A DNA stretch of 64,000 bases, from assembly GCA_018664485.1 (NCBI GenBank), contig JABJOE010000009.1:4108-68107 (forward strand), written 5' to 3'. The position numbers and the translations under genes were made by a program. This document shows, piece by piece, positions 23,585-54,330 of this stretch; within the stretch, counting starts at the first letter, position 1; every line of letters begins with the position of its first letter. The notes beneath the pieces were generated by a model. That model did not search any database and was not told the origin of the DNA. It was given only the letters and a program-made list of their open reading frames with translations. Source of the stretch: Candidatus Uhrbacteria bacterium (GTDB taxonomy: Bacteria; Patescibacteriota; Patescibacteriia; UBA9934).

Positions 23585-24484
23585 ATGGCTGCTAATGCTA
23601 AAGTTGTTAAGCGAAGGATCAAATCTATCGCCAATACGATGAAAATCACAAAGGCGATGGAGCTTGTTGCTGCGTCAAAAATGCGACGCGCGATACAATC
23701 CGTTCTAGGAACGCGCCCATATGCGCAACTTGCATGGCAAACGGTCAACGCTATATCTCGCGCTACAGGCGAAACAACACACCCATTACTTGAAGAGAAA
23801 CCTGATGCCACAAAAACACTTCTAATCCTCTTTACAGCAGACCGCGGTTTAGCCGGAGGGTATAACGTCAACATGATCAAAACTGCGATAAAAGCAGTAA
23901 AAGCGATCGATGACTCAGAAGTAGAAGCGATCTCAGTTGGTAAACGTGGAACAGCGGCACTCGCCAGAAACGAAGTTCCCGTCATCGCAACATTCGAAGA
24001 TCTTTCCAAAAAACCGGTCTTTGAAGACATACTTCCAATCGGAAACATGGTCATCGAAGCATTCATCCGAGGTGACTACAAAAGAGTTGTAGTCGGATAC
24101 ACAGACTTCATCTCCGGCCTCACTCAAAAGCCTCGCACCTTTGAACTTCTGCCACTTGGACAACCAGACGACGCTCTCGGAGACGTTAGCCGCGGAAAGG
24201 ATGAAGCAATTGAGGTTAAAGAGGCAAGTGAATATAAGTTTGAGCCTAATCCGCAAGAAGTACTCAACAGAATACTCGGAAGACTTGTCGAGACAATGCT
24301 ATACCAAGCGTTACTGGAGTCAACAGCATCTGAGCACTCAGCGCGAATGATGGCAATGCGAAATGCAACGGATTCTGCGAAGGACATGCTAGGCGAGCTC
24401 AAGTTTGCCTACAACCGACTGCGACAGGCCAGTATTACACAGGAAATTGCTGAAATTTCAAGCGGTAAGGCCGCACTAGAATAA
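23585..24484 (+). CDS. atpG: F0F1 ATP synthase subunit gamma
   Basis: N-terminal IKRRIKSI-NT-KITKAMELVAASKMRRA signature. Confidence 0.9.
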   Translation: MAANAKVVKRRIKSIANTMKITKAMELVAASKMRRAIQSVLGTRPYAQLAWQTVNAISRATGETTHPLLEEKPDATKTLLILFTADRGLAGGYNVNMIKTAIKAVKAIDDSEVEAISVGKRGTAALARNEVPVIATFEDLSKKPVFEDILPIGNMVIEAFIRGDYKRVVVGYTDFISGLTQKPRTFELLPLGQPDDALGDVSRGKDEAIEVKEASEYKFEPNPQEVLNRILGRLVETMLYQALLESTASEHSARMMAMRNATDSAKDMLGELKFAYNRLRQASITQEIAEISSGKAALE

Positions 24485-24505: not shown

Positions 24506-25996
<1,491 letters not shown>

Positions 25997-26097: not shown

Positions 26098-26544
26098 ATG
26101 TCAAAAATCTCACTAAAAATTGTCACACCAGAACGAATCGTTTTCGAAGATTCGGTTGATTCGATTTCTGCAATGACAGAAAAGGGTGAGATTACAATCC
26201 TTAAAAATCATATTCCTCTAGTGGCACTGCTAAAAGCAGGGGAGATGAGGCTCAAAGATGGCTCTACAAGCTCTCTCCTTGCAGTCTCAACCGGTTTGAT
26301 CGAAGTTCGGCCCGATAACACCGTCATCATCCTTGCAGACACTGCAGAGCGTTCTGACGAGTTGGCTATCGAGGAGATTGAAAAAGCAAAAGAACTTGCA
26401 CAGAAACGACTCGAAGAGGCTCGAGACAAGGGTGACGTCGCCTACGCTGACGCAGTAGCTAACATGGAACGCGAGTTGGCACGTCACAAGGTGGCGCGCA
26501 AAGGAAAGTACCGGGATGTCGGAGGACCTTCACCAATAAAATAA
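26098..26544 (+). CDS. atpC: F0F1 ATP synthase subunit epsilon
   Basis: N-terminal beta-sandwich signature LKIVTPER. C-terminal helical region. Confidence 0.85.
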   Translation: MSKISLKIVTPERIVFEDSVDSISAMTEKGEITILKNHIPLVALLKAGEMRLKDGSTSSLLAVSTGLIEVRPDNTVIILADTAERSDELAIEEIEKAKELAQKRLEEARDKGDVAYADAVANMERELARHKVARKGKYRDVGGPSPIK

Positions 26545-26651
26545 GACAAAAAAACAGTCCGTTTCTCTCCCAAACCCCTCATGAGGCTTGGTTGACAGAT
26601 GGGCTGTTTTTGATTAGCATTTTGTCGTTACGAACACCATGCCGGTAAGTA

Positions 26652-27353
26652 GTGACGAGGAATACGGAAATGTGTACACCAGACCAAGAGGAGGGACCTG
26701 GCCATGGCCGTCATGCTCCAAAGGCCGCAGGAGTAGTTCTTGTTCGGTGCGGAGACTATCGCACGAATGGACCGCATAGTGCGTTCGCTATAAACGAACT
26801 GCTCAAAAATGCAGTTGATGCATTTACGGTCAATCAGACTGGAAGGTCACATACTGCTGGAAGAATCAAACATGACCTACAGGTCATCCCTGGTCCAGCG
26901 CATGTCCTTGCAACTCGCTTTGGCATTCGACGCTACCTGCGTGCACAGCTATGGCTACATGCACAGATGCTGGGACTCCACAGCGTCGGCGATGGGCGGT
27001 GGATCGAAAAGCTGACGTCCTTGTGGCAGATCAAGGCCTACGTCGAGCTTCACGGCCAAGAGACAATAGTACTCGCTACCCACTGGGACTGCGGACGTGA
27101 GGGTGAACACGGACAGGATATGGACACCCACATTGCACATGCCTGGGGCAGCCTGCAAACACTCCGCCGAGCGCTTCCAGAACACAACCTCGCGCTGATG
27201 ATGCTGCACGTTGACGAAGGAAAGATCGTACTTGAAGAAAGTCGTGTATACACTTTCGTACAGGTCGCAGCGTTGATGGACAGAGTACACAGTCGCCACG
27301 CAACAGCGCAACGTCCCAAGACCGAGCAAAGCCGCGCAGAAGCTGCCAAGTAG
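26652..27353 (+). CDS. beta-carbonic-anhydrase-like zinc-binding protein, G+C-rich paralog (CxDxR ... HxxCG); exact start uncertain
   Basis: VLVRCGDYR and IVLATHWDCG align with ALVRCMDFR and IVLMNHTDCG of the next gene. G+C visibly higher than flanks. Long antisense ORFs here are treated as GC artefacts. Confidence 0.4.
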   Translation: MTRNTEMCTPDQEEGPGHGRHAPKAAGVVLVRCGDYRTNGPHSAFAINELLKNAVDAFTVNQTGRSHTAGRIKHDLQVIPGPAHVLATRFGIRRYLRAQLWLHAQMLGLHSVGDGRWIEKLTSLWQIKAYVELHGQETIVLATHWDCGREGEHGQDMDTHIAHAWGSLQTLRRALPEHNLALMMLHVDEGKIVLEESRVYTFVQVAALMDRVHSRHATAQRPKTEQSRAEAAK

Positions 27354-27463
27354 CGGCACTGAGCACAACTCCGACGACCGCCGCCCCAAGTCTTGGGTAG
27401 CGGTCGTTTTGCATCTGTACAAAAAATGATATTTTCTCTAGAATCTTTATAAATACTCAATAT

Positions 27464-27590
27464 CTACAACCTACTAGCTACAAGCTATTTTCTACAACCT
27501 AGTACCTAACACCTAAGACCTACCAGCTATTTACTACAAGCTACAACCTAGTACCTAATCCCTACCAGCTAATTTCTATAACCTAACACC
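27464..27590 (+). repeat. degenerate tandem repeat / minisatellite built from CTACAA(C/G)CTA, GTACCTAA, CCTACCAGCTAWTT units
   Basis: Read directly. Low-complexity CT/A-rich repeats immediately upstream of 27592. A 17-mer, cctagtacctaacacct, recurs with 1 mismatch at 38577-38593. Confidence 0.6.
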
Positions 27591-27591
27591 T

Positions 27592-28005
27592 ATGTCACAT
27601 ACCTGCTCCGCAGCGCTTGTTCGTTGCATGGATTTCCGACTCGAGTCTGCCATTGAGGAATACATGGCAAATAACAAACTCACAAACGACACAGACGTCA
27701 TATCAATTGCCGGTGCTGCAAAAGATGTAAACGATCAGAGCATGGGTGGAGCAGTCGCAGGTCAGCTCGCACTTTCAAAGAAATTGCACGACATCAACAC
27801 CATAGTTCTAATGAACCACACAGACTGCGGAGGCTACGGTGGACGATCAGCATTTGAAAGTCGAGAAGCCGAATGGCAGAACCATGTAGACGCTCTAAAC
27901 GGAGCAGCGGCTATACTAAAGGCAACATATCCAGACGTCACAATAAAAAAAACAATAGCTGATATTAACGACGACGGATCAATAGAAATCAAAGAAGTGG
28001 CTTAA
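27592..28005 (+). CDS. beta-carbonic-anhydrase-like zinc-binding protein (short, 137 aa)
   Basis: RCMDFR (CxDxR), VISIAGAA, HTDCGG (HxxCG) with beta-CA-like spacing. Identification tentative. Confidence 0.45.
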   Translation: MSHTCSAALVRCMDFRLESAIEEYMANNKLTNDTDVISIAGAAKDVNDQSMGGAVAGQLALSKKLHDINTIVLMNHTDCGGYGGRSAFESREAEWQNHVDALNGAAAILKATYPDVTIKKTIADINDDGSIEIKEVA

Positions 28006-28067
28006 AGTAAAAAGTTAGAAAAGCGGGCAAATGTCCGTTTTTCTATTTGTGCTAAAATAGCGTAACT

Positions 28068-31001
28068 ATGCCAGACAAACTTCTATTTGGATTAAACGAA
28101 GAGCAACTCGAAGCCGTCACATACGACGGTGGGCCGTTGATGATTATCGCAGGTGCCGGTACCGGAAAAACAACCGTAATCACTCAGAGAATCTCTTGGC
28201 TTATTGAACAGGGAAGAGCGAAGCCAGACGAAGTATTGGCACTAACCTTTACAGAGAAGGCGGCAACCGAAATGGAAGAGCGTGTTGATCAGCTACTGCC
28301 AATTGGATATGTAGATCTTTGGATTTCAACATTCCATGCTTTTTGCGAACGGGTCCTTCGACAACATGCACTTGAGATCGGACTACCAGATCAATTCCTT
28401 CTTCTCGATGAGATTAGTGCGTATCTGATGATTCGTCGTGAACTTGAACGGTTCGAACTCGACTACTATCAACCACGCGGAAACCCAACACGATTCCTTC
28501 GCTCAATGCTTAAGCACATCTCTCGCCTAAAGGACGAGCTCATTACTCCAGACGATTACGCCGCACTCGCAGCAGAAAAGCTCGCAAATAAAAAACCGGA
28601 CAAAGATGCTACCGACAAAGAAAACGAAGAGCAGTTAGCCGAGATTGCAAAGCTCGGTGAACTTGCAAATGCATACCGCGTATACCAAGACATTCTCCTT
28701 GAGCAGAATGCTTTGGACTTTTCTGACCTTATTTCATACACAATCGAGCTTTTCCGAAAACGACCAGATATTCTCAAGCAATATCAGGAACAGTTCAAAT
28801 ATATTCTGGTTGATGAGTTTCAAGATACAAACATGGCGCAATACGCGCTCGTAAAGCTACTCATTTCATCACCTGACAACATCACAGTGGTTGGAGACGA
28901 TGATCAATCAATCTATAAATTCCGAGGGGCGTCACTTTCAAATATCATGCAGTTCCGCGCTGACTTTCCGGATTCAAAGCGCGTAGTGCTTACAAAAAAC
29001 TATCGTAGTGGAAAGAATATTCTCGATGCTGCGTACAAGATGATTCAGCAAAACAATCCAAACCGGCTTGAGGATCGCGAAGGGCTAAACAAGGAGCTTA
29101 CAGCGCATCAGGAACACGAAGGGTACGTTGAACACATTCATTGTGATACTCATCACGACGAAGTACAGGGCGTCATGGAAAAAATCGTTTCACTCAAAAA
29201 AGACGACGACACGCGATGGTCCGACTTTGTTATCTTAGTTCGTGCCAATGACAACGCAACACCGTTTTTAACGTCCCTTGAACACGCCGGCATTCCATAC
29301 CGTTTCATGGCAATGTCAGGGCTCTACACAAAGCCAATTATCATCGACGGTCTTGCATTCCTGCGTATTATCGACCAGCACCACGATGGACCATCCATGT
29401 TTAGGATTTTGAGCCACCCAACTCTTGGTGTTGGGGAGAACGACCTTGCAAATATCACAATGCACGCTCGCAAAAAGGGAATTTCGTTGTTTCAGGCTTT
29501 GGTTTCCACTCCAGACATTTCAGATGAAGGAAAGAAACGAATTGATGAATTACTAGAATCACTTGGAAGCCTGGAGACAGAGGCACGCCGACGACCCGCA
29601 AGCGAACTATTCGTAAGTGTGATGAAGCAAACTGGCCTCCTTGCAGGAATTCGTGAACTGCCAGAGCCTGCACAGGTCGAGCAGTTTGAGTTCCTACAGC
29701 AGTTCTTCGCTCGAATTAAAGCATTTGAAAAGACTGCAACAGACCCTCATGTACACCATTTCTTGGAAATTTTCGACCATGAATCTCAGGCGGGGGAAGC
29801 TGGAAAATTATCAACTGATATTGAAGCCGGCCCTGACGTTGTAAACATCATGACCGTTCATGCTTCAAAGGGATTAGAGTTCCGCTTTGTTTTCCTCGTA
29901 AACCTGGTAGAGCAACGATTCCCGTCACAACGACGCGCTGACCCAATCAAAATCCCTGAAGAACTTGTAAAAGAAATTCAAAATGAAGAAGGGAATCCAC
30001 ACATTGAAGAAGAGCGACGACTTTTCTACGTTGCCATGACCCGTGCGAAAGAAGGTCTTTTCATGTTCAGTGCAGAAGATTACGGAGGTGTACGTAAGCG
30101 AAAACCATCACGATTCATTCAGGACGCTAATCTAGAACCACAAAGACGAACAGGAAATGTGCAAAGGCTTGGTGAGGAGATGGATGTAGAGGTGAAAGCT
30201 GGAAACAATATTCCATCATTCAAACCAGGGACGATGTCGTTCACTCAACTAGCGGCATTTTCAAGCTGTCCACTGCAGTACAAATTTGCTCATATCCTTC
30301 ACGTTCCAGTATTTGGTCGTTACCAGATGAGTTTTGGAAAAACGATGCACAACTCACTACAGCATTTCATGGAGCGCGTAGTTGCAGCCCAGCAGAAATC
30401 AGAGGAGACTTCAGGTGCAGACACAGAAACACCAATCGAATTTCCAAGCCTCAACATTCTAAAAGAGATATACGAAGCCAACTGGATTGACGAATGGTAC
30501 CCAGATGACGATATTCGCGAAGAGTACCGACAGAATGGACTTGATTCGCTTACAGCATTTCACACAGATCTCAACGCTCGCAAACCCAAGGTCTCAATGA
30601 TTGAAAAAGGCTTTACATTGAAAATTGGAGAAGTGACAGTAAAAGGACGTATAGACCGTATCGACGAAATTGAAGATGGCTTTGAAATCGTTGACTATAA
30701 AACTGGGTCACCAAAGGCTTTGGAGAAGATTGGTTGGCAAGAAAAACGTCAGCTGGTTCTCTATGCACTAGCTGCAGAGCGATGTTTCGATCCGCCACTA
30801 AAAATCACAAAACTTACGTACCATTATCTCGAGGACAACTCACTCGTGACATTCGAACCAAAACAAAAAGATATTGAAAAGCTTCAACAGGAAGTATTAG
30901 GTACGGTTGCTCGCATGAAAGAGTCTGATTTTAAGGCAACGCCGGGATGGAATTGTAAATTCTGTGACTTCCGAGATATTTGTGAATTTAGAGCTGGTTA
31001 A
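28068..31001 (+). CDS. UvrD/PcrA/AddA-type SF1 helicase fused to a C-terminal PD-(D/E)xK RecB/Cas4-like nuclease domain with a Cys cluster
   Basis: N-terminal AGAGTGKTTVIT Walker A, UvrD motifs (TFH, VDEFQDTN). C-terminal DxK-like region and NCKFCDF..IC Cys motif. Confidence 0.85.
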   Translation: MPDKLLFGLNEEQLEAVTYDGGPLMIIAGAGTGKTTVITQRISWLIEQGRAKPDEVLALTFTEKAATEMEERVDQLLPIGYVDLWISTFHAFCERVLRQHALEIGLPDQFLLLDEISAYLMIRRELERFELDYYQPRGNPTRFLRSMLKHISRLKDELITPDDYAALAAEKLANKKPDKDATDKENEEQLAEIAKLGELANAYRVYQDILLEQNALDFSDLISYTIELFRKRPDILKQYQEQFKYILVDEFQDTNMAQYALVKLLISSPDNITVVGDDDQSIYKFRGASLSNIMQFRADFPDSKRVVLTKNYRSGKNILDAAYKMIQQNNPNRLEDREGLNKELTAHQEHEGYVEHIHCDTHHDEVQGVMEKIVSLKKDDDTRWSDFVILVRANDNATPFLTSLEHAGIPYRFMAMSGLYTKPIIIDGLAFLRIIDQHHDGPSMFRILSHPTLGVGENDLANITMHARKKGISLFQALVSTPDISDEGKKRIDELLESLGSLETEARRRPASELFVSVMKQTGLLAGIRELPEPAQVEQFEFLQQFFARIKAFEKTATDPHVHHFLEIFDHESQAGEAGKLSTDIEAGPDVVNIMTVHASKGLEFRFVFLVNLVEQRFPSQRRADPIKIPEELVKEIQNEEGNPHIEEERRLFYVAMTRAKEGLFMFSAEDYGGVRKRKPSRFIQDANLEPQRRTGNVQRLGEEMDVEVKAGNNIPSFKPGTMSFTQLAAFSSCPLQYKFAHILHVPVFGRYQMSFGKTMHNSLQHFMERVVAAQQKSEETSGADTETPIEFPSLNILKEIYEANWIDEWYPDDDIREEYRQNGLDSLTAFHTDLNARKPKVSMIEKGFTLKIGEVTVKGRIDRIDEIEDGFEIVDYKTGSPKALEKIGWQEKRQLVLYALAAERCFDPPLKITKLTYHYLEDNSLVTFEPKQKDIEKLQQEVLGTVARMKESDFKATPGWNCKFCDFRDICEFRAG

Positions 31002-37001: not shown

Positions 37002-37667
37002 TCAGCTCTCACTGGGCTTGTAAGGGATGAACGATTCGCCGGTAATAGCAGGTGCTACTCCCGATGGCACGCTGAACGTATATCTAAATACATCACCAGG
37101 TTTGCAGATCGCGGGCGCTGCGCCCTTGAATGGAAAACCAATGAACGGTGCCATACCGACTCCAATTACGTGGCGGTCGCCCGTGGGAAAATCTCTAGAC
37201 AGAACTTTGAATTTGTATTTTCCTACAGGACCAAGGAGTACATCATGCATCCAGACAAGTAGTTGGAGTTGGTAGAATGTAGAATTTCGCCACACCTTCC
37301 CCCAAACCTGCATTCCCGGATCCTGCATAGATGCAACAGCCTTCATTGCCTCATCGAAACTCTTGCGCCCGCTCGGCCACCACGACTCATGGTGGTATCC
37401 AAGTGCTGCAACTTCGCGTGGAACAACCCTCACGCCAAGCTCATCATTCGCCAGCTCTGCAAGTAGACCAGTAGCATTGAGAGCAGACTCATCATGAGTC
37501 ACGAAGAGCCGACCGTCCCATGGGTCTCCACTCACTTTGATCAGAGGAAGTACTTCATTTAGAGACGCATCGCGCACCGCGCTTGCGCTCAAGCCAGCGT
37601 CGTTATCCATGCCGCAGCAAATCAGATGAAAGTTGACTTCCAGGCGCCTCTCATTCGGATCAATCAT
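37002..37667 (-). CDS. hypothetical protein, tandem paralog A (unknown family; FHLIxC, GDxWDGRL, HHVIGxG, C-terminal PYKPSES)
   Basis: 221 aa, G+C-rich. GGGAGGT SD 7 nt before the ATG. About 35-40% identical to the upstream paralog. Confidence 0.5.
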   Translation of the reverse strand: MIDPNERRLEVNFHLICCGMDNDAGLSASAVRDASLNEVLPLIKVSGDPWDGRLFVTHDESALNATGLLAELANDELGVRVVPREVAALGYHHESWWPSGRKSFDEAMKAVASMQDPGMQVWGKVWRNSTFYQLQLLVWMHDVLLGPVGKYKFKVLSRDFPTGDRHVIGVGMAPFIGFPFKGAAPAICKPGDVFRYTFSVPSGVAPAITGESFIPYKPSES

Positions 37668-37746
37668 TTAGACCTCCCGGCCTTGCTATGGGGAATCTAA
37701 ACTTACCTAATACACGCTTCTATCGTCAAATCACTTTAACGCACAT

Positions 37747-37777
37747 CACCCCCGACCTGGCGTTCCAGGCGGGGGTG
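37747..37777 (-). terminator. duplicated copy of the GC-rich hairpin terminator, 3' of paralog B
   Basis: Near-identical at nucleotide level to 36953-36985, including the last 6 codons of the preceding gene. Confidence 0.6.
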
Positions 37778-37794
37778 TTTGACGTTTGCAGGCC

Positions 37795-38439
37795 TCAGCT
37801 CTCACTGGGCACGTAGGGCGTGAATGTGCAGCTAACCAGTTTTGGCGGACCTTCTTTTGGTACATGGAAGAAGTAGCTGAACATAGATCCAGGCTCAACA
37901 ATGGCGGGCACATCAGAAGGGCTGCCATACGGCATGCCAATCATAGGGGAGTGGCCAAGACCAATCACATGATGATTTCTTGTACGATCAGCGAACCGCA
38001 TACCAACCATCACGGAATGCATCCAGGTCAAGACACGATGTCGGTAGAAACTGGCAGCCATCCACGACTGATGCCATGCCATAAAGGACTGTGGCGTTAC
38101 CATGAATTCTCTGACAAGCCCAATGTAGTCAGGGCCAGCATTACCATCCCAAATTGTGGGGTGGTAAAATCCGATCGCTCCAGTGGAGACCTGCTCACAG
38201 AACTGATCACGATCTCCGTCAACAACTGCCGCAATACTATCCGCAGCAGCGACAGGTGAACTGTCAACGTTCACATGGAGACGTCCATCCCATGCATCTC
38301 CAGGCCTCCTTATCAGAGGAAGAATCTTATCGCTGAACATGCAGCTCGCCCTAAGGGCGCCATTTTCACCACCAGGGCCCTCCGCACAAACAATGAGGTG
38401 AAAAGAAACCTTCAGGCACCCGCCTTTCTTACAAGCCAT
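37795..38439 (-). CDS. hypothetical protein, tandem paralog B (same unknown family; C-terminal PYVPSES)
   Basis: Start taken at MACKKGG (ATG at 38437-38439) with a GGAGGT SD. This aligns with the start of paralog A. The ORF as listed extends to 38499. Confidence 0.5.
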   Translation of the reverse strand: MACKKGGCLKVSFHLIVCAEGPGGENGALRASCMFSDKILPLIRRPGDAWDGRLHVNVDSSPVAAADSIAAVVDGDRDQFCEQVSTGAIGFYHPTIWDGNAGPDYIGLVREFMVTPQSFMAWHQSWMAASFYRHRVLTWMHSVMVGMRFADRTRNHHVIGLGHSPMIGMPYGSPSDVPAIVEPGSMFSYFFHVPKEGPPKLVSCTFTPYVPSES

Positions 38440-38576
38440 TCTAGACCTCCAGGTTTTGAGAATGGATCTGAATTTACCCAAAAAAACCTTGATTGTCAAG
38501 CAAAACTGGTGTAGACTTTGTCTATCAACCTTACAAGGTTGCAGGTTTTAAGTACTAGGTTTTAGCGCCAATACCT

Positions 38577-38593
38577 AACCCCTAGTACCTGAC
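38577..38593 (+). repeat. 17-mer cctagtacctgacacct, second occurrence of the motif found in the 27464-27590 repeat
   Basis: 1 mismatch to 27504-27520. Lies between the G+C-rich islet and lysS. Confidence 0.5.
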
Positions 38594-53697: not shown

Positions 53698-54255
53698 TCA
53701 GTCGTTGTCGATCCGGAGCTCACCATTCCGCTCCTTCCAGTCACCATCATCGATAACCTCGTCTTCCCACATCACCATGGTGGTTTCCGCCACGGCGTTG
53801 TCATCCACGAACAGGCTGGAAGCCGGTCCACCACCAATGGTGATGCTTCCGGTGCATTCTGCGTCAAAATGACTGGGAATGCTCGGAATGTAGACGATCG
53901 CCGAAAGGCCATCGGTGTAGATGTAGGGAGCAGCGGGAACGATGTCGCCATCGCTGTCCTCAACGAGGCAGCTCAGGTTCATCTGTGTGATCTCGTAGTT
54001 CGGATCCGTCATCGCTTCCTCGGCGTAGACGTTCATGATCTCGATCATGAGACCATCCTCCTGTATGGGAGCGCCGACCATGTTGCCGTTGCCGATCTCA
54101 GCGCAGATGTTGATGTTCGTGCCGCCGTTGCCGATCTCGATGAAGTCACCGAGACAGACCTTGGCGCCGAAGCTCGCATCCGACAAGTCGCATCCGCTGA
54201 GGGACAAGAACGAGACGATGGCGGCACCGGACATGAGGATCTTCTGAATGTTCAT
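53698..54255 (-). CDS. hypothetical secreted lipoprotein (G+C-rich islet)
   Basis: Start at MNIQK with an AAGGAGA SD. Signal peptide with LSLSGC lipobox. Gly/Asn-rich. Confidence 0.5.
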   Translation of the reverse strand: MNIQKILMSGAAIVSFLSLSGCDLSDASFGAKVCLGDFIEIGNGGTNINICAEIGNGNMVGAPIQEDGLMIEIMNVYAEEAMTDPNYEITQMNLSCLVEDSDGDIVPAAPYIYTDGLSAIVYIPSIPSHFDAECTGSITIGGGPASSLFVDDNAVAETTMVMWEDEVIDDGDWKERNGELRIDND

Positions 54256-54330
54256 GGGGTCTCCTTGCCTCAAATGAGGACTTAGTTTGGGGTAGGTTTC
54301 AGCGGCGCTGAATCACGTCGGATCTTTCAA

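What the first reader, a model, noticed from the sequence alone, without database searches (positions are those of the whole stretch)
26652..28005. Tandem beta-carbonic-anhydrase-like paralogs of contrasting composition downstream of the atp operon
Gene B (27592-28005, native-like G+C) and gene A (26652-27353, clearly G+C-rich, with a ~60-aa insertion) share CxDxR and HxxCG zinc-ligand motifs and a similar D(D/E)G..E..E C-terminus. This pattern is best explained as a minimal beta-class carbonic-anhydrase-like fold; it is much shorter than canonical beta-CAs. One copy looks native and one xenologous, sitting side by side and separated by a CT/A-rich minisatellite. The position right after the atp operon could hint at a pH or bicarbonate link, but that is speculative.
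Basis: partly seen in the sequence, partly recalled or inferred. Interest (0 to 1): 0.5.

Follow-up and report, generated by a model that had tools for sequence, protein, structure and literature searches.

The report
Tandem minimal beta-carbonic-anhydrase-like genes after atp operon
Two neighbouring genes after the ATP-synthase operon of an uncultured Patescibacteria-type bacterium both encode very small zinc enzymes of the beta-carbonic-anhydrase type: one is a conserved member of a catalogued but untested family, and the other is a fast-changing, G+C-rich relative in a slot that holds a different version even in the closest relatives.

Summary
Gene B (27592-28005, 137 aa) is a clear member of Pfam PF20393 Pro_CA_2. 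Its confident model matches only beta-class carbonic anhydrases, and it keeps the CxDxR and HxxCG zinc motifs.

Gene A is best read as 26670-27353 (227 aa). It is a real but very divergent paralog, below the Pfam cut-off, with the same motifs plus insertions and tails. Its subfamily matches the B family at 97.8% hhalign probability.

A is the G+C-richest 700 bp of the window (54.7% against 45.7% for B).

The one-off xenolog reading is only partly right.
- The order atpC, A-like gene, B, helicase is conserved in relatives.
- The upstream paralog is G+C-richer than B in all 23 non-redundant tandem loci.
- The closest relatives (B 81-82% identical) carry a different A subtype (about 20% identity) between flanks that align up to the start codon and from the last four codons onward.
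- A-type genes carry strong Shine-Dalgarno sites in a genome that otherwise lacks them. B-type genes never do.
- B lies within 4 kb downstream of atpC in 44 of the 84 non-redundant loci examined.

Enzyme activity is untested. I rate this a new variant of a known kind, of moderate interest.

The parts
26098..26544 (+). atpC (F1 epsilon subunit), last gene of the atp operon and left conserved flank of the slot
   Evidence: ORF. It is 84-89% identical in protein to atpC of L001/L002, which is called with PF02823 there. DNA similarity to relatives runs up to 26543.
26592..26620 (+). Promoter-like site for gene A (TTGACA, 17 nt, TAGCAT)
   Evidence: Consensus scan, 10 of 12 matches. Both hexamers are conserved in L001 and L002. 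This is a consensus match plus conservation; transcription was not measured.
26657..26661 (+). Shine-Dalgarno motif GAGGA, 8 nt before the ATG of gene A
   Evidence: It aligns with AGGAGG in L001/L002. Only 9 of 50 long ORFs in the window have any SD-like motif.
26670..27353 (+). Gene A: divergent beta-carbonic-anhydrase-like paralog of the 'alpha' subtype, 227 aa (233 aa if read from GTG 26652). It has CGDYR and HWDCGREG motifs, internal insertions and a C-terminal helical tail.
   Evidence: GC 0.547.
27372..27411 (+). Hairpin plus T-run after gene A (CGACCGC...GCGGTCG TTTT), a likely intrinsic terminator and the right conserved flank
   Evidence: Read from the sequence. It matches L001 in both orientations by blastn and aligns with L001/L002 together with the last four codons of A. 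The simple terminator scan did not list it.
27416..27444 (+). Promoter-like site for gene B (TGTACA, 17 nt, TAGAAT)
   Evidence: Consensus scan, 9 of 12 matches. L002 has TTGACT-17-TATTAT at the equivalent place.
27459..27591 (+). G-poor (C/T/A-rich) minisatellite forming most of the 5' leader of gene B. It has a 42-bp unit in 2.7 copies and two exact copies of CTACAACCTAGTACCTAA.
   Evidence: The RNA is predicted to be unstructured (MFE -7.9 kcal/mol, z = +0.57). Relatives have shorter G-poor leaders without this array.
27592..28005 (+). Gene B: canonical Pro_CA_2 (PF20393) minimal beta-carbonic-anhydrase-like protein, 137 aa, with no Shine-Dalgarno motif
28016..28045 (+). Terminator-like hairpin (13-bp stem) followed by a T-run after gene B
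28068..31001 (+). UvrD/AddB-like helicase-nuclease gene, conserved right-hand neighbour of gene B (context)
   Evidence: ORF. Homologs follow B in 36 of the fetched loci and are called with UvrD-helicase and PDDEXK_1 domains.

Best explanation
Gene B is a minimal (137 aa) beta-class carbonic-anhydrase-type zinc enzyme of the Pro_CA_2 family. This family is a conserved companion of the F-type ATP-synthase operon in Patescibacteria.

Its likely chemistry is that of beta-CAs. A zinc ion held by Cys12, His76 and Cys79, with the Asp14-Arg16 dyad, activates water for reversible hydration of CO2 to bicarbonate plus a proton. It may act on a related small molecule such as COS or CS2. The fold and the motifs are shown here. 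The activity is inferred.

Gene A is an old paralog of B that sits in a variable slot between atpC and B. It has its own promoter, Shine-Dalgarno site and terminator, and it keeps the complete zinc and dyad motif set. It therefore probably still binds zinc, either as an isozyme or as a partner subunit of B, since beta-CAs work as dimers. That last point is inference only.

The slot holds at least four very divergent subtypes of such paralogs in different lineages. The window's copy is of a different subtype from those of its closest relatives, although the flanks are orthologous up to the start codon and from the last four codons onward. The coding cassette was therefore replaced. The route was either homologous recombination through the conserved flanks or sorting-out of an ancestral array of paralogs. 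It did not simply diverge in place.

The raised G+C and the Shine-Dalgarno site are properties of this class of cassette genes, not marks of a single recent import.
For: B belongs to the family and has the fold.
- Pfam Pro_CA_2 scores 52.8 bits against a cut-off of 30.
- About 100 homologs were found, all PF20393; those that carry a source name are called carbonic anhydrase or hypothetical protein, mostly in Patescibacteria MAG records.
- Invariant residues across 36 members include C12, D14, R16, H76, D78, C79 and G80.
- The family profile hits beta-CA Rv1284 (E 1e-4), COS hydrolase, Cab and CS2 hydrolase, with the motifs aligned.
- The model has pLDDT 95.3. The 39 Foldseek PDB hits with E <= 0.001 are all beta-CAs.

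A is a real coding paralog.
- A keeps C, D, R, H, D, C and G in register with B.
- Seven true remote relatives among 1.84 billion representatives share CGDxR, PGP and (T/S)H(W/F)DCGREG.
- hhalign of the A subfamily against the B family gives 97.8%, E 8.7e-13.
- Nine of the eleven A-type genes with an intact upstream sequence have a Shine-Dalgarno-like motif.

The slot is conserved and its content variable.
- Synteny holds in L001, L002, L005, L008, L018, L020, L089 and others.
- Window against L001/L002: B is 81-82% identical and atpC 84-89%. The A proteins give only 16-17 BLASTP bits.
- The window's A scores 39-80 bits against alpha-subtype genes of genomes whose B is 48-61% identical.
- DNA alignment stops at the ATG and resumes at GCTGCCAAGTAG plus the hairpin.

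Composition. The upstream paralog is G+C-richer than B in 23 of 23 non-redundant tandem loci. GC3 examples are 0.90 against 0.54, 0.84 against 0.49 and 0.65 against 0.31.

atp link. atpC lies upstream on the same strand within 4 kb in 44 of the 84 non-redundant loci examined, and the gap is under 200 bp in 17 of them.
Against: - No enzymatic, metal-binding or expression data exist for any member. No paper on PF20393 was found in the held library.
- B scores below the threshold of the classical beta-CA model PF00484: 17.3 bits against 25.7.
- B has extra invariant residues (H3, C5, K44, H66, Y82, E94) that classical beta-CAs do not explain, so the substrate could differ.
- A's structural model is only moderate (pLDDT 69). 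It was built from an alignment dominated by B-type sequences, so its beta-CA fold match is partly circular.
- The beta subtype in relatives has lost the Asp-Arg dyad (C-V-E-P-G), so slot paralogs are not uniformly catalytic.
- In this window atpC, A and B look like separate transcription units, which weakens an operon-based functional link.
- The 23-of-23 count is not phylogenetically independent.
- Nothing here explains why the cassette genes stay G+C-rich.
Confidence: 0.6

Rival explanations
1. Gene A is a single recent horizontal acquisition (xenolog) from a G+C-rich donor that happened to land next to the native gene B.
For: A is the G+C-richest segment of the window, at z = 3.0. It has a Shine-Dalgarno site in a genome where only 9 of 50 long ORFs have one. 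It is unrelated in subtype to the slot gene of the nearest relatives.
Against: The slot already holds a beta-CA-like paralog in every close relative. A's promoter, SD region, last four codons and terminator are orthologous with L001/L002. All seven true homologs of A among 1.84 billion representatives are weak (29-38% identity). Two of the five looked up lie in Patescibacteria-type atp/Pro_CA_2 contexts; the context of the others is short or uninformative. Upstream paralogs are G+C-rich in 23 of 23 lineages, so G+C excess does not mark a recent event.
Confidence: 0.15
2. The A genes of all lineages are strict orthologs that diverged in place. Under very relaxed or diversifying selection, close relatives are simply no longer alignable.
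For: The flanks are conserved right up to the CDS. Synonymous sites between these genomes are near saturation: coding DNA is 71-79% identical at 81-90% protein identity. A weakly constrained protein could therefore reach about 20% identity. Within a subtype, A identity is always much lower than B identity.
Against: The window's A is clearly more similar to alpha-subtype genes of distant genomes (39-80 bits where B is 48-61% identical) than to the A of L001/L002 (16-17 bits where B is 81-82% identical). The beta and gamma subtypes show the same patchy distribution. A clock-like divergence in place cannot give that pattern.
Confidence: 0.12
3. The A region is not a protein gene. It is a G+C-rich non-coding element, such as a structured RNA, or a decaying pseudogene, and its long ORF is a by-product of composition.
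For: Gene callers chose the opposite strand in L001 and L005. Long antisense ORFs exist in the window too. Only two A-type proteins are present in the 5.8-billion-protein collection.
Against: No Rfam family matches the region, either at E <= 10 locally or at gathering score window-wide. The + strand ORF is kept at about 165-260 aa in all lineages, with zinc-ligand motifs in register. Profile-level homology to Pro_CA_2 is significant. A conserved Shine-Dalgarno site, ATG and terminator flank the ORF.
Confidence: 0.04
4. A and B have the beta-CA fold but are not carbonic anhydrases. They act on another small substrate (COS or CS2 hydrolase-like), or they serve as zinc or redox sensors or as accessory or assembly factors of the ATP synthase.
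For: COS hydrolase and CS2 hydrolase are among the sequence and fold hits. B has additional invariant His and Cys residues at the N-terminus (H3, C5) and other family-specific invariants. B is tightly linked to atpC in many genomes. B falls below the PF00484 threshold.
Against: The full beta-CA catalytic set (Cys, Asp, Arg, His, Cys-Gly) is invariant. The best fold matches are bona fide carbonic anhydrases. COS and CS2 hydrolases differ from CAs mainly by access-tunnel features in regions that this minimal protein lacks; that statement rests on my own knowledge, not on a test here.
Confidence: 0.25

Closest known systems
Pfam PF20393 Pro_CA_2 ('Putative carbonic anhydrase')
   Same: B is a full-length member (52.8 bits, profile positions 4-112 of 125). 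All of its roughly 100 homologs carry this domain.
   Different: A and its whole alpha subfamily score 14.7-27.3 bits or nothing, below the 30-bit cut-off. They also carry insertions, an N-terminal extension and a C-terminal helical tail. The family has no experimental characterisation that I could find.
'Cab'-type beta-class carbonic anhydrase of Methanobacterium thermoautotrophicum (PDB 1G5C) and M. tuberculosis Rv1284 (PDB 1YLK)
   Different: Cab and Rv1284 are 163-172 aa and B is 137 aa. Sequence identity is only 10-21%. B fails the PF00484 gathering score and has family-specific invariant residues (H3, C5, K44, H66, Y82, E94).
Duplicated or degenerate beta-CA modules: Porphyridium purpureum tandem-repeat beta-CA (1DDZ) and carboxysomal CsoSCA (8THM)
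   Different: In those systems the two modules are fused in one polypeptide and form a pseudo-dimer. Here A and B are separate genes with separate promoters and terminators, and no A-B interaction has been tested. The statements on how CsoSCA and the Porphyridium enzyme are built rest on my own knowledge.
DabA of the DAB bicarbonate-accumulating complex (a beta-CA-like protein coupled to a cation-translocating membrane subunit)
   Same: It is only a conceptual parallel: a beta-CA-like zinc protein genetically linked to an ion-translocating membrane machine, here the F1Fo ATP synthase.
   Different: No sequence or fold comparison with DabA was made here. DabA is far larger and needs DabB. This comparison rests on my own knowledge and is a lead, not a test.

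Membership tests
Pro_CA_2 (PF20393) | Whole-protein score at or above the Pfam gathering cut-off of 30 bits | tested here: met
   Gene B scores 52.8 bits, E 5.7e-14.
Pro_CA_2 (PF20393) | The same cut-off applied to gene A | tested here: not met
   Gene A scores 18.9 bits, E 0.0018. Its relatives P0103-P0110 score 27.3 bits or less. Homology to the family is nevertheless supported by hhalign at 97.8%, E 8.7e-13, so A is a relative outside the curated boundary.
Beta-class carbonic anhydrase (PF00484 Pro_CA) | Zinc ligands Cys, His and Cys in the motifs CxDxR and HxxCG | tested here: met
   B has C12, H76 and C79. A has CGDYR and HWDCG. These residues are invariant in 36 B-type sequences and across the A-plus-B alignment. 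They align with the ligand motifs of Rv1284.
Beta-class carbonic anhydrase (PF00484 Pro_CA) | Asp-Arg dyad next to the first Cys | tested here: met
   B has D14 and R16, which are invariant. The window's A has D and R in CGDYR. The dyad is lost in the beta subtype of relatives L001, L002 and L018 (C-V-E-P-G).
Beta-class carbonic anhydrase (PF00484 Pro_CA) | Alpha/beta fold of the beta-CA type | tested here: met
Beta-class carbonic anhydrase (PF00484 Pro_CA) | Score at or above the PF00484 gathering cut-off of 25.7 bits | tested here: not met
   B scores 17.3 bits, E 0.006. A has no hit.
Beta-class carbonic anhydrase (PF00484 Pro_CA) | Zinc-dependent reversible CO2 hydration activity | not testable with these tools
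   This needs an enzyme assay or genetic complementation. No published data were found.
Beta-class carbonic anhydrase (PF00484 Pro_CA) | A dimer as the basic functional unit (homodimer, or an A-B heterodimer) | not tested
Known anti-phage defence or phage gene families (considered because of the hypervariable cassette behaviour) | Match to a PADLOC or PHROG profile | tested here: not met
   There are no PADLOC hits, and no PHROG or NCBIfam hit below E 0.02, for A, B or relatives.

The most novel reading that the evidence does not exclude
The gap between atpC and Pro_CA_2 may be a dedicated cassette-exchange site. In it, ancient and mutually very divergent beta-CA-like genes of at least four subtypes are swapped within and between Patescibacteria lineages, with breakpoints at the start codon and at the last four codons. 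These cassette genes, together with a few other G+C-rich genes in the same genome, would form a separate class: translated through Shine-Dalgarno pairing in an otherwise Shine-Dalgarno-free genome, and kept G+C-rich by recombination-linked biased repair or by selection. This would point to a conflict-driven or condition-specific role for a carbonic-anhydrase-like protein attached to the ATP synthase locus, rather than housekeeping CO2/bicarbonate chemistry.
Probability: 0.15. Interest if true: 0.75.

Novelty: new variant of a known kind. Interest (0 to 1): 0.5.

Why it matters
Patescibacteria (candidate phyla radiation) have tiny genomes and poorly understood energy metabolism. Three points follow from this locus.

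First, a 137-aa beta-carbonic-anhydrase-type protein follows the ATP-synthase operon in about half of the species-level genomes that carry it. This is a concrete, testable lead on how these cells couple proton pumping, pH control and CO2/bicarbonate.

Second, if B is active it would be, as far as I know, one of the smallest beta-class carbonic anhydrases. That would be useful for defining the minimal catalytic unit.

Third, the upstream slot shows an unusual evolutionary pattern. Its flanks are conserved to the codon, its coding sequence is replaced, it is persistently G+C-rich, and it carries a Shine-Dalgarno site in a genome that does not otherwise use them. Gene callers often call the wrong strand there, so this subfamily is nearly absent from protein databases.

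Tried and rejected
1. A structured RNA in the G+C-rich A region. Rfam found nothing relevant at E <= 10 in 26400-28100, and nothing at gathering score in the whole window. Rejected.

2. A as an ORFan or spurious ORF. The word-indexed searches found only A itself and one relative. The exhaustive phmmer search found seven true remote relatives, so this is rejected. P0107 in that list is a low-complexity false positive.

3. Defence, phage or NCBI family membership for A, B and relatives. Nothing was found.

4. Silent donor copies of A elsewhere in the window, as in antigenic-variation systems. blastn and profile scans of all six frames found none within these 64 kb. The rest of the genome is not available.

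5. An integron attC-like site at the hairpin after A. By eye there are no RYYYAAC/GTTRRRY ends and no integrase nearby. I treat it as an ordinary terminator.

6. A relationship between A/B and the window's other G+C-rich genes (37002-38499 and 53698-54255). Profile scans found none.

7. The leader minisatellite as a structured RNA. It is predicted to be unstructured (z = +0.57).

8. Literature on PF20393/Pro_CA_2, or on carbonic anhydrase in Patescibacteria or the candidate phyla radiation. Nothing specific is in the held library.

9. The global pairwise identities with free end gaps gave unreliable values on short overlaps (for example 42% and 55%). I replaced them with the BLASTP bit scores.
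Full report
**1. What is in the sequence**

The window carries atpG (23585-24484), atpD (24626-25996) and atpC (26098-26544). After them come ORF A (26652-27353), a 238-bp spacer, ORF B (27592-28005) and a UvrD/AddB-like helicase gene (28068-31001), all on the + strand.

The more likely start of A is ATG 26670. It has GAGGA 8 nt upstream, and it matches a 227-aa protein called independently on an ENA contig. That 893-bp contig equals window 26513-27405 with one mismatch, so the G+C-rich segment and its left junction are not an assembly artefact.

A contains C-G-D-Y-R and H-W-D-C-G. B contains C12-M-D-F-R16 and H76-T-D-C79-G.

Pairwise BLASTP of A against B gives E 1e-4 over the HxxCG half and E 4e-4 over the CxDxR segment.

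**2. Composition**

| Measure | A | B |
|---|---|---|
| GC | 0.547 | 0.457 |
| GC1 | 0.675 | 0.558 |
| GC2 | 0.44 | 0.399 |
| GC3 | 0.526 | 0.413 |

B is indistinguishable from the atp and helicase genes. Against 60 long ORFs of the window (mean GC 0.452, sd 0.032), A lies at z = 3.0. The 700 bp from 26700 are the G+C-richest of the whole 64 kb.

**3. The spacer between A and B**

The spacer has four parts.
- A hairpin plus T-run at about 27372-27411.
- A promoter-like site, TGTACA-17-TAGAAT, at 27416-27444.
- A G-depleted repeat array with a 42-bp unit in 2.7 copies and 79% matches. It has 8 G in 132 nt and is the most G-poor stretch of the window. As RNA it is predicted to be unstructured (z = +0.57).
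- The ATG of B, which follows directly with no Shine-Dalgarno motif.

There are two small corrections: the start of A, and the extra length of A. The extra length is about 20 aa at the N-terminus, about 40 aa internal and about 35 aa at the C-terminus, not one ~60-aa insertion.

**4. Gene B**

- B matches Pfam PF20393 Pro_CA_2 ('Putative carbonic anhydrase') at 52.8 bits against a cut-off of 30. It matches the classical beta-CA model PF00484 only at 17.3 bits against a cut-off of 25.7.
- About 100 homologs were found, all carrying PF20393. Those that carry a source name are called carbonic anhydrase or hypothetical protein, mostly in Patescibacteria MAG records (Uhrbacteria and Parcubacteria among them).
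- Many database entries start at Met13 and so lose the first zinc ligand. The invariant N-terminus MSHTCS shows that the full 136-137-aa form is right.
- Invariant positions across 36 members are M1, H3, C5, C12, D14, F15, R16, D35, A40, G41, K44, S62, H66, H76, D78, C79, G80, Y82 and E94.
- A profile of the family hits solved beta-CAs: Rv1284 (E 1.1e-4), COS hydrolase, Cab and CS2 hydrolase. The two motifs are in register.
- The AlphaFold model is very confident (pLDDT 95.3, pTM 0.89). Its 39 Foldseek PDB matches with E <= 0.001 are all beta-class carbonic anhydrases, led by Cab 1g5c (E 8e-6, TM 0.61-0.66).

B is therefore a minimal beta-CA-fold protein with the full catalytic residue set. 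This is shown. Its activity is inferred.

**5. Gene A**

- A scores only 18.9 bits on Pro_CA_2. The word-indexed database of 5.8 billion proteins returned only A itself.
- An exhaustive phmmer search of 1.84 billion cluster representatives found seven true remote relatives at E 2.6e-12 to 3e-4 and 29-38% identity. They share CGDxR, an FD...PGP motif and (T/S)H(W/F)DCGREG. All of them fall below the Pfam cut-off.
- The profile of this 'alpha' subfamily matches the B family with hhalign probability 97.8%, E 8.7e-13, over 125 columns.
- The model of A is moderate (pLDDT 69). The core reaches 85-92 and the inserted region 51-110 is poor.
- Caveat: the input alignment for the A model consisted mostly of B-type sequences.
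- No Rfam family matches the region.

A is therefore a genuine, very divergent paralog that keeps Cys, Asp, Arg, His, Cys and Gly.

**6. Relatives show that the pair and the slot are conserved**

Contigs carrying B homologs of 74-82% identity (L001, L002 which equals L007, and L005) have the same order: atp operon, a gene of 223-236 aa, Pro_CA_2, helicase.

Gene callers picked the antisense strand in L001 and L005. The + strand nevertheless holds an ORF with Cys and His...Cys in register.

Profile scans of 119 fetched loci found an adjacent second Pro_CA_2-like ORF in about 30 non-redundant loci, upstream of B in 23 of them. These ORFs fall into several groups.
- Alpha: the window, L020, L087-L093.
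- Beta, with GCVEPG...HxxCAGR: L001, L002, L018, L096, L097.
- Gamma, with CGDPRGS...HTxCGA: L005, L008.
- A 'delta'-like group, with CxDG...HxPCG: L024, L037, L043, L070, L073.
- Near-canonical duplicates: L047.
- Two-module fusions: L030, L032, L045, L064, L065.

hhalign of the beta subtype against the B family gives 82% (E 1e-5). The gamma subtype gives 40%.

**7. The cassette was replaced, not just diverged**

Between the window and L001/L002, protein identities are as follows.

| Protein | Identity to L001/L002 |
|---|---|
| AtpD | 90% |
| AtpC | 84-89% |
| B | 81-82% |
| Helicase | 78-81% |
| A | 16-17 BLASTP bits only |

The window's A scores 39-80 bits against alpha-subtype genes from genomes whose B is only 48-61% identical. 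The beta and gamma subtypes are likewise scattered across the B similarity groups. Divergence in place cannot produce that pattern.

At the DNA level, similarity to L001/L002 behaves as follows.
- It runs through atpC.
- It reappears in a 60-nt stretch holding the TTGACA and TAGCAT/TAGTAT hexamers and the Shine-Dalgarno site.
- It stops at the ATG.
- It resumes at the last four codons (GCTGCCAAGTAG, '...AAK stop') and the terminator hairpin.

Two routes fit these facts. One is homologous recombination through the conserved flanks. The other is loss of all but one member of an ancestral array of paralogs that shared similar flanks. I cannot separate them with this sample. Within each subtype, A divergence roughly tracks B divergence, which fits old paralogy as well as exchange.

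No silent copy of A exists elsewhere in the 64 kb.

**8. G+C richness and ribosome-binding sites are class properties**

In all 23 non-redundant loci with an upstream paralog, that paralog is G+C-richer than the downstream B, and in all but one (L020) G+C-richer than the locus.

| Locus | GC3 of upstream paralog | GC3 of B |
|---|---|---|
| L002 | 0.90 | 0.54 |
| L001 | 0.84 | 0.49 |
| L005 | 0.73 | 0.46 |
| L018 | 0.65 | 0.31 |
| L089 | 0.55 | 0.37 |
| L091 | 0.52 | 0.24 |

- The excess sits largely at third positions, so amino-acid usage alone does not explain it.
- Second copies that lie downstream of B show no such trend.
- The only A-type gene that is less G+C-rich than its locus is a truncated copy away from any B, in a 60% G+C contig (L093).
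- The window's genome is essentially free of Shine-Dalgarno motifs: 9 of 50 long ORFs under a lenient pattern.
- A and the three other G+C-richest ORFs all have strong ones.
- In relatives, nine of the eleven A-type genes with an intact upstream sequence have AGGAGG-like or weaker GGAG-type sites, and none of nine B-type genes does.
- B-type leaders are G-poor and unstructured. The window's minisatellite is an expansion of such a leader.

I have no demonstrated cause for the persistent G+C excess. Candidates are recombination-linked GC-biased repair at a hot spot, repeated exchange among lineages of differing G+C, or selection on the mRNA.

**9. The atp link**

Of the 84 non-redundant loci examined, 44 have atpC upstream of B on the same strand within 4 kb. 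The helicase follows B in 36 of the fetched loci.

| Gap between atpC and B | Loci (of 44) |
|---|---|
| Under 200 bp (B is in effect the last gene of the operon) | 17 |
| 200-500 bp | 2 |
| 500-1300 bp (one-gene slot) | 15 |
| Over 1300 bp | 10 |

The one-gene gaps are nearly always G+C-richer than the locus. In one case (L014) the slot holds an unrelated G+C-rich membrane-protein gene.

In this window the scans suggest separate promoters and terminators for A and B, so co-transcription with atp is not implied here.

One functional reading is that a carbonic anhydrase supplies or buffers protons and bicarbonate for an ATPase that may run in reverse in these fermentative cells. This is inference from general knowledge, not shown.

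**10. Comparison with what is known, and verdict**

- B is a member of a catalogued but uncharacterised family. I found no paper on it.
- A belongs to a relative subfamily outside the Pfam boundary.
- The closest solved relatives are Cab-type and Rv1284-type beta-CAs.
- No defence, phage or NCBI family matches.

The beta-CA-like reading is supported. The 'one native, one xenologous' reading is partly supported and needs reframing as a conserved, replaceable, compositionally distinct cassette slot.

Novelty: new variant of a known kind. Interest: moderate (0.5). The fold assignment is ordinary. The codon-precise cassette replacement, the persistent G+C excess, the Shine-Dalgarno contrast and the ATP-synthase linkage are unexplained and testable.

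Noticed in passing
window 37002-37667 (-) and 37795-38499 (-): A second tandem pair of paralogs (221 and about 214-234 aa) shares FHLIxC...LPLIxxxGDxWDGRL. They have no Pfam hit and are G+C-rich for this genome (0.52 and 0.51, z about 2). Both have strong Shine-Dalgarno motifs (GGGAGG, GGAGG) in a genome that otherwise lacks them. They are not related to A or B by profile scan.
   Followed up: partly
window 53698-54273 (-): This is the G+C-richest ORF of the window (GC 0.565, GC3 0.76, z3 = 4.4). It has an AAGGAG Shine-Dalgarno motif and a lipoprotein-like N-terminus (…LSLSGC). It has no Pfam hit.
   Followed up: partly
whole window (50 long ORFs): The genome is nearly devoid of Shine-Dalgarno motifs: 9 of 50 ORFs under a lenient pattern and about 5 of 50 under a strict one. 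Four of the strict cases are the four G+C-richest ORFs. This suggests two classes of genes with different translation-initiation signals.
   Followed up: partly
window 38548-38592 and 27498-27558: The motif CCTAGTACYTAA from the A-B minisatellite also occurs as an inverted pair in the intergenic region upstream of the G+C-rich gene 37795-38499 (-). There are 4 matches in the window against 0.29 expected. It may be a dispersed repeat or an operator-like site.
   Followed up: partly
L001 5079-5966, L005 5175-5870 and other relatives: Public gene calls in the slot are on the wrong (antisense) strand in several relatives. Many B-type proteins are truncated to Met13 and so lose the first zinc ligand. 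As a result the A-type subfamily is almost absent from protein databases.
   Followed up: yes
L089 4434-10436 (and L090): In one lineage the space between the A-type gene and Pro_CA_2 has grown to about 4.4 kb. It holds a cupin gene, a Ser/Thr protein kinase gene and three unknown genes. A further unknown 150-aa gene sits between atpC and the A-type gene. The whole atpC-B interval therefore behaves as an insertion hot spot.
   Followed up: no
L030, L032, L045, L064, L065 (upstream ORFs of 269-315 aa): In these loci the upstream gene is a fusion of a degenerate N-terminal and a canonical C-terminal Pro_CA_2-like module. This gives three beta-CA-like modules in a row before the helicase gene.
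   Followed up: no
L007, L010, L018 and other GTDB records: Several of the closest genome records are titled 'uncultured Gammaproteobacteria bacterium', yet they carry the Patescibacteria-type atp, Pro_CA_2, helicase locus. The taxonomic labels of these TPA assemblies look unreliable.
   Followed up: no
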